64,000 nt of DNA from contig CAVXWP010000004.1 of NCBI GenBank assembly GCA_963765495.1, positions 32,001-96,000 on the forward strand. The letters run 5' to 3'. Positions within the stretch are counted from its first letter, which is position 1, and each line of letters begins with the position of its first letter. The notes under the pieces are model-generated. The model was not told the DNA's origin. It worked only from the letters and a program-made list of their open reading frames with translations, and searched no databases. Position numbers and translations under genes: made by a program. The stretch comes from Blastocatellia bacterium (GTDB lineage: Bacteria; Acidobacteriota; Blastocatellia; UBA7656). This document shows positions 12,906 to 29,801 of the stretch, in pieces.

Positions 12906-13018
12906 CCCTCTATGGCAGCCTGTACTGAGTATAGGCCGCCTATCTGTTTCATATGAGGGGCGCGTATTGCATCGCCTCGCGTTCCATCAGTCCACTCAGA
13001 TTTTTCAGAGGAGGTAAC

Positions 13019-13477
13019 ATGAAACTAGCCGAAGCACTTATCCTTAGAGCCGATCATCAAAAACGTATCGAGCAGCTCAAACAGCGACTTTTGAGAAACG
13101 CCAAAATTCAGGAGGGTGACGAACCTGCTGAAAACCCGGGGTTACTCATTGAGGAACTCGAAAAACTTTCTGAAAATCTGCTCCATTTGATCCAGTCCAT
13201 AAACGGCACTAATGCAACCACTCAGCTTGGCGATGGGTTGACTATCTCTGATGCTATCGCTGTCAGAGACGTTATAAGGTTGAAACAGAGCATCTATAGA
13301 GACCTGGCACAGATGGCGACGGTAACTCAAGACCGCTACACCAAGTCGGAGGTAAAATTCAAGAGCACAGTTGAGGTCACTGAAATTCAGAAACGGGCGG
13401 ATGATTTGGCCAGACAGCATCGAGAATTAGACTCTAGAATTCAAGAAGCTAACTGGCGGACAGAACTTGTCGAGTAG
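13019..13477 (+). CDS. DIP1984 family protein (long coiled-coil hairpin, function unknown)
   Basis: MKLAEALILRAD...NAKIQEGDEPAENP...IN.TN...AIAVRD...RYTKSEVK...RELDSRIQEANW.TEL matches the family from end to end. RBS GAGGAGG, ATG 13019. Confidence 0.88.
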   Translation: MKLAEALILRADHQKRIEQLKQRLLRNAKIQEGDEPAENPGLLIEELEKLSENLLHLIQSINGTNATTQLGDGLTISDAIAVRDVIRLKQSIYRDLAQMATVTQDRYTKSEVKFKSTVEVTEIQKRADDLARQHRELDSRIQEANWRTELVE

Positions 13478-13484
13478 TTGAAAG

Positions 13485-13721
13485 AAGGTAGCAATTCCAG
13501 TGAAGGCGAGCACAACCCTTGCGAGCGAAAGCTGGCATCATGGTAGGCGCGAGGGGCCGTGCCTGTGGGTTCGACCCCCACAATAACAGGGTATGCCCAG
13601 TAAGGTGACAAGCGTACAGTGTAATGAGTATTGTTACTACCGAGTGCTGATTCATTGGGAATGTGAGGGTGGGAAAGGGGACTTTCAGAACTACTCTATA
13701 GCAACATATCCAGTTCTACCC
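13485..13721 (+). ncRNA. Candidate ~240-nt structured RNA directly downstream of the DIP1984 gene
   Basis: Nested helices CCAGTGAA(13497-504)/TTCATTGG(13651-58), AGCAC/GTGCT and CCCTTGCG/CGCGAGGG; GAAA and GGGA tetraloop hairpins; a T-loop hairpin TGTGGG-TTCGACC-CCCACA; two GGTAG/CTACC pairings. Confidence 0.65.
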
Positions 13722-13724
13722 GTT

Positions 13725-29345: not shown

Positions 29346-29700
29346 GGGGGTGCCAGGTTTCGACGGGGGTACTCCGAGGCGTTAGATGCATACCGCGGCC
29401 CATGCACCGCGTTATCAAGTGTGGAAAACACAATCGCGAACAGCGAACTTGCATTGGCAGCTTAGTTCTGCCACGTCTCCTCCGCCATCGCCTGTGTGTA
29501 GGATGTGAGGCGTAACTTTAGCAGGCTGCCCCTTTCGGGCCGTGCTCAGGGCGCGACGGGGAAAGATAATCTGAACTAGCCCGATGCGATGCTTAGTTGC
29601 TTCCACTGTCGCAAAGGGCGAATCAAAACAGGAAGCGACTATGTATGTAGAGTTTAACGTTTAGGGCTTCCGGACGAGAGTTCGATTCTCTCCACCTCCA
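29346..29700 (+). ncRNA. ssrA: tmRNA, tag peptide ANSELALAA
   Basis: 5' GGGGGTG...GGTTTCGAC; 3' GACGAGAGTTCGATTCTCTCCACCTCCA with a G3.U acceptor pair; tag ORF GCG AAC AGC GAA CTT GCA TTG GCA GCT TAG (29436-29465). 3' CCA is not encoded. Confidence 0.96.
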
Positions 29701-29801
29701 TTGATTATTGTGACGACTTGATTGCTAAATTTTGGGCGGTAGATTTGCTCCGTTGAGGAGCGCGCCTACCGCCTTATAGTCTTTTAGGAGAGAACTTTAA
29801 A

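What the first reader, a model, noticed from the sequence alone, without database searches (positions are those of the whole stretch)
13019..13721. DIP1984-family gene followed by a large, multi-helix, probably pseudoknotted RNA: candidate undescribed protein-ncRNA system
Seen: the 247 nt between the DIP1984 stop (13477) and the convergent nrdJ stop (13725) are far too structured for a terminator. Nested stems: CCAGTGAA 13497-504 / TTCATTGG 13651-58 (extendable to ATTCC/GGAAT); AGCAC 13509-13 / GTGCT 13644-48; CCCTTGCG 13516-23 / CGCGAGGG 13548-55 enclosing the hairpin AGC-GAAA-GCT; a tRNA T-arm mimic TGTGGG-TTCGACC-CCCACA 13564-82; GAAAG-GGGA-CTTTC 13673-86. GGTAG 13487-91 / CTACC 13716-20 can close the whole domain, and a second pair, GGTAG 13542-46 / CTACC 13637-41, would cross the nested stems as a pseudoknot. 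The GNRA loops, T-loop and G.U pairs all favour the plus strand, i.e. co-transcription with the gene. Established: GNRA tetraloops and T-loops mark RNAs with tertiary folds, and DIP1984 proteins are functionally uncharacterised coiled-coil proteins. It does not look to me like tRNA, tmRNA, RNase P, SRP or a common riboswitch. Inference: a dedicated RNA partner of the basic DIP1984 protein (ribonucleoprotein, RNA antitoxin or ribozyme-like element).
Basis: partly seen in the sequence, partly recalled or inferred. Interest (0 to 1): 0.88.

Follow-up and report, generated by a model that had tools for sequence, protein, structure and literature searches.

The report
Uncatalogued RNA partnered with DIP1984 gene
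Right behind a small gene of unknown function lies a real, roughly 200-base folded RNA that travels with that gene across many bacterial phyla and often sits inside RNA-repair operons, so the two probably form an undescribed RNA-protein particle.

Summary
Window 13487-13685 (+) is a member of a conserved structured RNA family with no Rfam match. It follows a DIP1984/DUF6847 gene in every group I sampled.

- Relatives: 10 of 10 DIP1984-positive genomes among 61 carry it.
- A Brevibacillus-centred family: 9 of 9 among 61.
- A whole-collection pattern scan: 53 of 58 true hits across five or more phyla.
- Plasmids: 7 of 8 examined.

Covariation supports the closing stem P1, P2, a hairpin with a conserved GGGGC loop, and weakly a T-arm. 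The 3' domain carries four units spaced 7 nt apart.

In 7 of 10 relatives the pair opens an RtcR-controlled rtcB/rtcA operon, sometimes with Ro60 and a separate YrlA. The best reading is a DIP1984-RNA particle acting in RNA repair. Binding and expression are untested.

The scan has found this pair before on other DNA.

The parts
13019..13477 (+). DIP1984/DUF6847 gene (152 aa, stop included). The true start is ATG 13019, behind a GGAGG ribosome-binding site, not the upstream ATG 12953.
   Evidence: Pfam PF20935 at 3.5e-53. NCBIfam NF038048 at 9.5e-55. PDB 3KDQ at 4.1e-40. Homologues start at MKLAEAL.
13487..13685 (+). The whole conserved structured RNA. The covariance-model match is 13481-13685 and the conserved block starts at GGTAGC 13487.
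   Evidence: R1 scores 196.2 bits, E 1.3e-52. It is the only copy in the genome. There is no Rfam match.
13491..13504 (+). P1 5' strand. It pairs with 13651-13664, with one A-A mismatch in this copy.
   Evidence: All 14 pairs show changes on both sides, and 92.2% of cells are paired.
13505..13510 (+). Conserved junction GGCGAG, kept even in the Acinetobacter and Enterococcus variants.
   Evidence: Invariant columns. Read.
13509..13513 (+). P2 5' strand AGCAC. It pairs with GTGCT 13644-13648.
   Evidence: 5 of 5 pairs show changes on both sides, and 97.8% of cells are paired.
13520..13537 (+). P3, a variable hairpin (here TGCGAGC-GAAA-GCTGGCA).
   Evidence: Each homologue has a hairpin of different sequence and length at this place. 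This is my reading, not a statistic.
13546..13563 (+). P4 hairpin, 13546-50 with 13559-63. Its loop holds the conserved GGGGC 13553-57.
   Evidence: 5 of 5 pairs show changes on both sides, and 94.5% of cells are paired. The loop G's are invariant in the 8-sequence alignment.
13565..13581 (+). T-arm-like hairpin GTGGG-TTCGACC-CCCAC.
   Evidence: Three GC pairs are invariant and the fourth pair has 6 pair types. The scan pattern itself demanded this motif. It is absent from the Paracoccus, Picosynechococcus, Enterococcus and Acinetobacter variants.
13595..13600 (+). Conserved GCCCAG element. Its partner is unresolved.
   Evidence: Invariant columns.
13605..13632 (+). Row of four 7-nt units (GTGACAA GCGTACA GTGTAAT GAGTATT; family consensus G-Y-G-N-A-N-N).
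   Evidence: The lag-7 self-match is 0.411. Shuffles give 0.251, sd 0.011, with a maximum of 0.289 over all lags. The test used 51 distinct sequences.
13633..13641 (+). GTTAC and the conserved ACTACC. GTTAC can pair with GTGAC 13605-09 (P7, unproven).
   Evidence: P7 is 88.4% paired with no change on both sides. The alternative 5' GGTAG 13487-91 with CTACC is 92% paired but invariant.
13644..13648 (+). P2 3' strand GTGCT.
13651..13664 (+). P1 3' strand.
13665..13681 (+). Conserved G-rich 3' tail GAGGGTGGGAAAGGGGA.
   Evidence: The G tracts are invariant in the 8-sequence alignment. They are present in most of the 59 homologues and absent in the Acinetobacter variants.

Best explanation
Window 13487-13685 (+) encodes a member of a widespread structured non-coding RNA family that Rfam does not hold. 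The RNA is made from the same transcript as, or just behind, the DIP1984/DUF6847 gene at 13019-13477.

Anatomy:
- A long closing stem formed by the two ends (P1 and P2).
- A variable hairpin (P3).
- A hairpin with a fixed GGGGC loop (P4).
- A tRNA-like T-arm.
- A row of four 7-nt units.
- A G-rich tail.

I infer that the self-associating, all-helical DIP1984 protein binds this RNA, most likely on the 7-nt row, to form a ribonucleoprotein. I further infer that this particle is an accessory of the Rtc RNA-damage response, working as a scaffold, adaptor or tRNA mimic in the way Ro60 works with Y RNA.

In this genome the pair stands alone. RtcB is encoded on another contig, and I found no RtcR or Ro60.

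Shown: the conservation, the fold core, the strict gene-RNA linkage and the operon contexts. Inferred: co-transcription, protein-RNA binding and the repair role.
For: 1. No known family. Rfam shows nothing at gathering score. At E <= 10 there are only two junk matches. ARAGORN finds nothing there.

2. Conservation and covariation. RNAalifold on a structure-blind MAFFT alignment of 8 sequences predicts 34 pairs, 17 of them with compensatory changes. On 59 sequences 88.9% of cells are paired against 69.8% in shuffles. The covariation score is 0.490 against 0.191, reached by 0 of 500 shuffles, and slid controls give 0.05-0.09.

3. Not coding. Every anchored reading frame has stops in 41-53 of 55 sequences. 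Lengths fall evenly over the three classes mod 3.

4. Linkage to DIP1984.
- In 61 relatives PF20935 passes its cut-off in 10, and model R1 hits those same 10 right next to the gene.
- In a second set of 61 genomes around a Brevibacillus, 9 have the gene and the same 9 have the adjacent RNA.
- Of the 67 pattern hits over 185,579 species, 58 are true. Of those, 52 show the gene directly upstream on the same strand, and a 53rd (L036) shows it once extended.
- R1 hits directly after the stop codon in 7 of 8 plasmid or phage-labelled records at E <= 0.001.
- nrdJ and GH130, the window's neighbours, occur in none of the 7 relatives' loci.

5. Rtc context.
- In 7 of 10 DIP1984-positive relatives the order is rtcR, then divergently DIP1984-RNA-...-rtcB-rtcA.
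- One of these operons also holds Ro60 and Band-7. Another holds Ro60 and a separate YrlA.
- An RtcB-like gene (RtcB Pfam-confirmed for one member, L074) directly follows the RNA in 7 cyanobacterial loci and 1 Chloroflexota locus.
- An Acinetobacter plasmid has rtcB-hyp-DIP1984-RNA-rtcA.

6. Periodic 7-nt units.

7. Self-association. With four copies the ipSAE score is 0.74 and the best of 3 controls is 0.05. The mark was reached by 20 of 30 proteins solved as pairs and by 1 of 23 solved as single chains. The runs agree in at least 81% of contacts, and the partner's pLDDT is at least 85. A relative is solved with four chains (3KDQ), so this pass may come from memory.

8. In Enterococcus an intrinsic terminator follows the RNA, not the gene.
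Against: - No expression data and no binding data exist for this RNA.
- The window copy has no Rtc gene beside it. The genome shows no RtcR and no TROVE protein.
- 9 of the 16 relatives with RtcR lack the pair, so it is dispensable for Rtc operons.
- Most Acinetobacter plasmid copies and many other loci show no Rtc genes in the flanks I held.
- The protein is acidic (pI 5.7), and Foldseek finds no RNA-binding fold, only 3KDQ and generic helical bundles.
- The RNA stays intact beside broken DIP1984 genes in 2 genomes, which fits an RNA that can act without the protein.
- The fold energy is unremarkable (z = -1.22).
- Alignment A2 was fitted to the model's structure, so its pair counts lean towards that structure.
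Confidence: 0.55

Rival explanations
1. The element is cis-acting: a 3'-UTR or intercistronic structure that stabilises, processes or attenuates the DIP1984 mRNA, or controls the downstream rtcB. It would not be a trans-acting partner RNA.
For: It is always on the gene's transcript side, often 8-10 nt after the stop. In several operons it lies just 5' of rtcB.
Against: In the window and in many loci no same-strand gene follows it. In Enterococcus it is followed by a terminator. About 200 nt with phylum-spanning invariant blocks and a 7-nt row is much more than stabilisers need. It also persists next to broken DIP1984 genes.
Confidence: 0.15
2. The pair is a toxin-antitoxin or addiction/defence module. 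The RNA would neutralise a toxic DIP1984 protein, in the manner of type III systems.
For: The distribution is patchy and looks mobile. 371 plasmid records carry the gene, 342 of them Acinetobacter, and there are a few phage-labelled records. Only 10 of 61 and 9 of 61 genomes in the two families carry it.
Against: The protein has no PADLOC match and no nuclease fold. There are no tandem repeats, and the RNA lies downstream as a single copy, unlike type III antitoxins (a recalled property). The RNA surviving next to broken protein genes is the opposite of what an antitoxin-only role predicts. The Rtc operon context points elsewhere.
Confidence: 0.1
3. The RNA acts on its own as a tRNA-like decoy or damage sensor of the Rtc response, for example as a target whose cleavage products signal to RtcR. 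DIP1984 would be a chaperone or unrelated co-passenger.
For: The RNA has a T-arm and a variable-arm-like hairpin; the weak tRNA-Sec match covers exactly these. It lies in RtcR-controlled operons. RtcR is reported to respond to tRNA halves (abstracts of PMC7790460 and PMC10159003, seen in search listings). The RNA is retained where DIP1984 is broken, and an RNA remnant lies 5' of rtcB in G035.
Against: The T-arm is missing in several subtypes. The strict adjacency to DIP1984 in genomes without RtcR, this one included, is not explained.
Confidence: 0.1
4. It is a divergent Y RNA, that is, a partner of Ro60 (Rsr) rather than of DIP1984.
For: Like Y RNAs it has a terminal stem made by the two ends, a conserved G-N-C-G-A motif just after it, and a T-arm (compare sections 5-6 and 9-10 of PMC4201824). 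Ro60 lies beside the pair in 3 genomes: L110, L112 (which is also L036) and L063.
Against: There is no RF02553 or other Y RNA match. A bona fide YrlA (69.4 bits) sits elsewhere in the same operon in L112. This genome has no TROVE protein. Most loci show no Ro60 in the held flanks, while DIP1984 is nearly always there.
Confidence: 0.04
5. Chance complementarity in a spacer, or only a terminator.
For: The MFE z-score is only -1.22.
Against: The comparative results argue against it, and there is no terminator-like site.
Confidence: 0.01

Closest known systems
Ro60 (Rsr) with bacterial Y RNAs (YrlA, YrlB, Yrn1) in the rsr-yrlBA-rtcBA operon
   Same: A protein of no enzymatic class is encoded next to its own structured RNA. 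The RNA is closed by a stem made of its two ends and carries a tRNA-like T-arm. The pair sits in RtcR-controlled operons with rtcB and rtcA (PMC4201824 sections 5, 6, 9, 10 read).
   Different: The protein is a 152-aa helical bundle, not a TROVE ring. The RNA does not match RF02553 and co-exists with a true YrlA in one operon. It has a 7-nt row and a G-rich tail that are not described for Y RNAs. The pair also occurs where no Ro60 is found.
SmpB with tmRNA
   Same: A small protein and a tRNA-like structured RNA, often encoded side by side (recalled). A tmRNA is in this window at 29346-29703.
   Different: There is no acceptor end, tag reading frame or tmRNA model match. ARAGORN and Rfam see only the true tmRNA.
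Oligomeric proteins that read evenly spaced short RNA units (HutP, TRAP, CsrA sponges). Their properties are recalled, not tested here.
   Same: A row of short units at fixed spacing, next to a protein predicted to self-associate.
   Different: The protein fold is unrelated. There are only four units here. Binding is not shown. The RNA has a large additional folded core.
Type III toxin-antitoxin systems (ToxIN and relatives; properties recalled)
   Same: A protein gene coupled to a dedicated non-coding RNA, patchily distributed and common on plasmids.
   Different: There are no tandem repeats. The RNA is downstream and single-copy. The protein has no nuclease fold and no PADLOC hit.
SPFH/Band-7 with a 'novel tRNA-like molecule' in RtcB systems (Burroughs and Aravind 2016, recalled from its abstract; the paper was not held)
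   Same: The idea of scaffold proteins with cognate RNAs in RtcB operons. A Band-7 gene lies in one operon that also holds the pair.
   Different: Band-7 was found beside the pair in 1 locus only. I could not compare the RNAs because the paper was not readable.

Membership tests
Any Rfam 15 family | A covariance-model score at or above the family's gathering score | tested here: not met
   No match in 13478-13724 at gathering score. At E <= 10 the only matches are tRNA-Sec at 13.7 bits (cut-off 47) and MIMT1_1 at 12.1 bits (cut-off 45). There is none in 8 plasmid or phage loci with the pair.
YrlA / bacterial Y RNA | A match to RF02553 | tested here: not met
   The model does work on this material: it finds a YrlA at L112 5362-5475 (69.4 bits).
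YrlA / bacterial Y RNA | Encoded within about 4 kb of a Ro60 (TROVE) gene on the same strand (criterion of PMC4201824, section 5) | tested here: not met
   No TROVE match in the whole genome. Ro60 lies beside the pair in only 3 genomes.
YrlA / bacterial Y RNA | Bound by Ro60 | not testable with these tools
   This needs immunoprecipitation.
tRNA / tmRNA | Cloverleaf or tmRNA architecture recognised by ARAGORN or Rfam | tested here: not met
   The only hit in the window is the tmRNA at 29346-29700.
DIP1984 / DUF6847 protein family (the gene) | A score above the curated cut-offs of PF20935 and NF038048 | tested here: met
   179.8 bits against a cut-off of 27, and 184.8 bits against 70.
DIP1984-associated RNA family (defined here by model R1) | Closing stems P1 and P2, the GGCGAG junction, P4, the GCCCAG element, the 7-nt row, ACTACC, and a position directly 3' of a DIP1984 gene | tested here: met
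   196.2 bits over the full model. The window sequence was one of the 8 used to build R1, so the score is partly by construction. Independent members score 42.8-193.4 bits (full-length matches 56.7 and up).
Rtc RNA-repair operon (for this copy) | Adjacent rtcR, rtcB or rtcA | tested here: not met
   The window's neighbours are GH130 and a class II ribonucleotide reductase. RtcB is on contig C14. No RtcR was found. The feature is met in 7 of 10 relatives.
Type III toxin-antitoxin | Tandem RNA repeats upstream of an endoribonuclease toxin | tested here: not met
   No tandem repeats. The RNA is downstream. The protein has no nuclease fold and no PADLOC model.

The most novel reading that the evidence does not exclude
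DIP1984 and its RNA form a new class of ribonucleoprotein. An oligomer of a small helical-bundle protein would read a row of 7-nt-spaced units on a dedicated, tRNA-decorated scaffold RNA. The particle would be a mobile, phylum-spanning accessory of RNA-damage responses (Rtc/Ro60 operons, plasmids and, according to earlier unchecked notes of this scan, phages), with a mechanism unlike Ro60-Y RNA.
Probability: 0.35. Interest if true: 0.9.

Novelty: new variant of a known kind. Interest (0 to 1): 0.8.

Why it matters
DIP1984/DUF6847 is a large family. My search listed 2620 protein clusters, it has had a crystal structure since 2009, and 371 plasmid records carry it. Yet no function is known, and in clinical Acinetobacter plasmid papers it carries the misleading label 'septicolysin'.

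Three results turn this orphan into a testable hypothesis: the gene almost always comes with a conserved 200-nt RNA, that RNA is missing from Rfam, and the pair repeatedly opens RtcR/RtcB/RtcA/Ro60 operons. If the hypothesis holds, there would be a second protein-RNA accessory of bacterial RNA repair beside Ro60-Y RNA.

It also gives RNA structural biology a new multi-helix RNA with a T-loop module and a periodic protein-binding-like row.

Tried and rejected
- Thermodynamic test. The fold energy of the spacer is not unusual, so it cannot carry the claim.
- Sigma-70 promoter and terminator scan. It found 2 promoter-like sites against 1.4 expected and 0 terminators, which is uninformative.
- Sigma-54 promoters. 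My two regular expressions found 0 of 51 upstream regions (the first pattern, was mis-spaced). By eye, L005 and L007 have TGGCAC-N5-ATGC, and the window has a GG-N10-GC candidate at 12957-12970. I did not test this further.
- P6, a small hairpin between the T-arm and GCCCAG. It is only 49.8% paired in alignment A2. This may be an alignment problem, so it is left open.
- P7 (GTGAC/GTTAC) and 5' GGTAG/CTACC. Both are compatible with the sequences (88% and 92% paired), but the columns hardly vary, so neither is proven.
- Fold search of the protein. Only 3KDQ is significant, and the AF2 model differs from the crystal chain (TM 0.50).
- PADLOC gave no hit.
- Viral contigs. The pattern found 0 matches. 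This tests only the T-loop subtype.
- Sequencing runs. No RNA holder was listed, and the one holder is a soil metagenome DNA run. I laid no reads.
- Earlier notes by place found nothing.
- Literature searches:
  - 'DIP1984': 1 paper, unrelated.
  - 'DUF6847': 0 papers.
  - 'septicolysin': 34 papers; in the 15 listed, the titles and abstract openings shown concern resistance plasmids and genomes.
  - 'septicolysin' with 'noncoding RNA': 1 paper, irrelevant.
  - 'septicolysin' with 'RtcB': 0 papers.
  - 'RtcB' with 'tRNA-like' and 'SPFH': 0 papers.
- Papers I could not see. Burroughs and Aravind 2016 could not be read. The supplements of PMC4201824, which list the YrlA candidates, are closed. 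Either could hold a mention of this RNA or gene that I did not see.
- D. radiodurans. The control line says it has a PF20935 match. I had no route to its DNA. So I could not test whether the small RNAs a, b and d upstream of rsr (PMC4201824, section 9) include this RNA.
Full report
**What is at the site.** The gene at 13019-13477 (+) is a full-length DIP1984/DUF6847 protein of 152 aa. It scores 3.5e-53 against PF20935 and 9.5e-55 against NF038048, and it matches PDB 3KDQ at 4.1e-40. A class II ribonucleotide reductase converges from 15773 down to 13725.

By energy alone the spacer is unremarkable. The plus-strand MFE z-score is -1.22, with 23 of 200 shuffles folding as well, and the minus strand has z = +0.20. 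Rfam finds nothing there at gathering score, and its only match in the window is the tmRNA at 29346-29703. At E <= 10 there are two chance-level matches, one of which covers the T-arm. ARAGORN sees no tRNA-like gene, and there is no terminator-like site.

**Comparative check.** A blastn search of the spacer over 61 related genomes matched 9 including the window's own. One of those, L009, is a 25-nt chance match. In all 7 real foreign matches the similar DNA lies directly behind a DIP1984 homologue of 55-81% identity. None of them lies next to nrdJ or GH130.

A structure-blind MAFFT alignment shows a conserved block of about 200 nt, from GGTAGC (13487) to the G-rich tail near 13683. RNAalifold predicts 34 pairs on it, 17 with compensatory changes.

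I built covariance model R1 from these 8 sequences. I also scanned one genome of each of 185,579 species with a pattern taken from two invariant blocks. That gave 67 loci. Seven were the relatives again, and I did not pass them on. Of the 60 I gave to R1, 51 matched. The 9 that failed are tRNA genes or GC-rich coding DNA.

By record title, the true hits come from Acidobacteriota, Cyanobacteriota, Chloroflexota, Bacillota and Actinomycetota.

**Linkage to the gene.**
- A profile of the protein finds a DIP1984 frame directly upstream, on the same strand, in 52 of the 58 true pattern loci.
- Three loci (L020, L036, L060) are cut by the edge of the stored stretch. L036 turned out to have the gene once extended (L112).
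- Three lack the gene. L026 has a decayed gene and a truncated RNA, L034 has an XRE/ImmA pair instead, and L071 has insertion-sequence genes.
- Among the 61 relatives, PF20935 passes its cut-off in 10 genomes. R1 hits those same 10, next to the gene, plus a 49.9-bit remnant in G035 that has no gene.
- In a second, unrelated set of 61 genomes around a Brevibacillus, 9 have the gene (2 of them broken), and the same 9 have the RNA adjacent.
- Starting from the protein in plasmid and phage records, R1 hits directly after the stop codon in seven records at E <= 0.001:

| Record | R1 bits |
|---|---|
| Paracoccus | 94.4 |
| Mycobacterium | 89.8 |
| Picosynechococcus | 81.2 |
| Streptomyces | 74.9 |
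| Enterococcus (two records) | 34.3 each |
| Acinetobacter plasmid | 15.8 (E 5e-4) |

- A second Acinetobacter plasmid scores only 6 bits (E 0.2). By eye it shows the same P1, GGCGAG junction, P2 and ACC element.
- The genome holds one copy of the RNA.
- No reading frame is conserved: each anchored frame has stops in 41-53 of 55 sequences.

**The fold.** On the 59-sequence model alignment A2 the nested core is 88.9% paired, against 69.8% in shuffles. Its covariation score is 0.490 against 0.191, reached by 0 of 500 shuffles, and slid controls give 0.05-0.09. A2 is fitted to the model's structure, so these counts lean towards it. The blind alignment gives the same P1, P2 and P4.

| Helix | Window coordinates | Support |
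|---|---|---|
| P1 | 13491-13504 with 13651-13664 | 14 of 14 pairs change on both sides |
| P2 | 13509-13 with 13644-48 | 5 of 5 |
| P4 | 13546-50 with 13559-63 | 5 of 5 |
| T-arm | 13565-69 with 13577-81 | 1 of 4; the other 3 are invariant |

The pattern I scanned with demanded the T-loop, so its constancy in A2 is partly by selection. It is absent from the Paracoccus, Picosynechococcus, Enterococcus and Acinetobacter variants.

- The helix 13516-23 with 13548-55 is 40-66% paired, equal to shuffles, and it clashes with P4.
- The pseudoknot 13542-46 with 13637-41 is 46% paired.
- The hairpin 13673-86 is not conserved.
- The closure onto 13716-20 lies outside the conserved block.

The pairing of the 5' GGTAG with CTACC 13637-41 is 92% compatible, but the columns hardly vary. 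The same holds for GTGAC/GTTAC.

**A periodic row.** Earlier notes of this scan describe rows of 7-nt units in RNAs beside DIP1984-like genes elsewhere, which prompted me to test this family. In the 33 nt from GTGAC (13605) the lag-7 self-match is 0.411. Shuffles give 0.251, sd 0.011, and their maximum over all lags is 0.289. The test used 51 distinct sequences. The units are close to G-Y-G-N-A-N-N, four in a row.

**Context.** The window's own neighbours say nothing about function, but the relatives' neighbours do. I clustered neighbouring frames and checked them with Pfam, tblastn and Rfam.
- In 7 of the 10 DIP1984-positive relatives (G010, G011, G020, G021, G026, G034, G049) a divergent rtcR faces DIP1984-RNA. 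Where the contig goes on, rtcB and rtcA follow.
- G049 also has Ro60 (TROVE plus vWA) and Band-7.
- G011 has Ro60 and a separate YrlA at 69.4 bits.
- An RtcB-like gene directly follows the RNA in 7 cyanobacterial loci and 1 Caldilineaceae locus. RtcB was confirmed by Pfam on the L074 member.
- An Acinetobacter plasmid carries rtcB-hyp-DIP1984-RNA-rtcA.
- RtcR occurs in 16 of the 61 relatives. Seven of them have the pair beside it and 9 lack the pair. Three genomes with the pair, this one included, show no RtcR.
- This genome has RtcB on another contig and no TROVE protein.

So the pair is an optional, mobile accessory that is often, but not always, wired into the Rtc/Ro60 RNA-repair response.

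**The protein.** AlphaFold2 gives four long helices with short strands between them, at pLDDT 85.5. Foldseek finds only 3KDQ with significance. The computed pI is 5.7.

Four copies are predicted to associate. The score is 0.74 and the best of 3 controls is 0.05. The mark was reached by 20 of 30 proteins solved as pairs and by 1 of 23 solved as single chains. The runs agree in at least 81% of contacts, and pLDDT is at least 85. Because a relative is solved with four chains, this pass may reflect memory of that structure.

**Reading.** I regard the first step as established by the calls above: this is a real, uncatalogued RNA family tied to DIP1984. I put that at about 0.9.

The second step is inference from operon context, the periodic row, the predicted self-association and the analogy with Ro60-Y RNA. 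It says the protein binds the RNA and the particle serves RNA repair. I put that at about 0.5-0.6. The rivals are a cis element, a toxin-antitoxin pair, an RNA acting alone, and a Y RNA for Ro60. They are set out above with what would refute each.

**Novelty.** I found nothing in print. My searches were 'DIP1984' (1 unrelated paper), 'DUF6847' (0), 'septicolysin' with 'noncoding RNA' (1 irrelevant paper), 'septicolysin' with 'RtcB' (0), and 'RtcB' with 'tRNA-like' and 'SPFH' (0).

I could not read Burroughs and Aravind 2016 or the supplements of PMC4201824. Either may bear on prior mention.

The scan itself has flagged the same gene-RNA pair on other DNA: 26 notes in at least 25 genomes. I did not check their claims about phages.

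Noticed in passing
window 29346-29703 (+): A tmRNA gene (156.6 bits), with the tag peptide ANSELALAA by ARAGORN.
   Followed up: no
L113 3496-4409; L117 414-1191; L114 13384-13455: tRNA genes lie directly downstream of rtcA or rtcB in relatives' rtc operons: an array of 5, an array of 6, and a single gene. They may be spare tRNAs attached to an RNA-repair operon.
   Followed up: no
L112 5362-5475 (-): A bona fide YrlA (RF02553, 69.4 bits, just over its cut-off of 69) lies in the same rtcR-controlled operon as DIP1984, its RNA and Ro60.
   Followed up: partly
L118 7757-8185 (own genome, contig C14); L008 1067-1429; L110 7627-7992: A small protein family of 121-142 aa with no Pfam match sits just upstream of RtcB in the window's own genome. 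In several relatives it follows the DIP1984 RNA.
   Followed up: partly
L114 10216-12165: The RtcB of one relative carries an intein splicing domain.
   Followed up: no
G067:C1:5877134-5877641; G098:C4:128811-129184; G035:C1:4331-4531: The RNA is intact (130 and 134.8 bits) beside a DIP1984 gene with an in-frame TGA and beside one cut to 50 aa. A half-decayed RNA with no gene lies 5' of rtcB in G035.
   Followed up: partly
window 12957-12970; L005 and L007 upstream of DIP1984: Sigma-54-like GG-N10-GC elements, seen by eye. L005 and L007, which have a divergent rtcR, show TGGCAC-N5-ATGC. The window has AGGGGCGCGTATTGCA about 50 nt before the start codon, although no RtcR was found in the genome.
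   Followed up: partly
L027 4950-5516; L012 1317-1781 and clusters: An HNH endonuclease recurs upstream of the pair in 12 loci, and a NADAR-domain protein near it in 4 cyanobacterial loci.
   Followed up: no
L030, L075, L076 upstream of DIP1984: By eye, the 3' part of a tRNA gene lies just before the DIP1984 gene in three cyanobacterial loci. This would fit insertion of the module next to tRNA genes. I did not check it with a tRNA finder.
   Followed up: no
plasmid collection: 342 of the 371 plasmid records with a DIP1984 match are Acinetobacter, mostly small plasmids where the gene is called 'septicolysin' in papers. The 8-kb plasmid I read has the divergent RNA copy behind the gene.
   Followed up: partly
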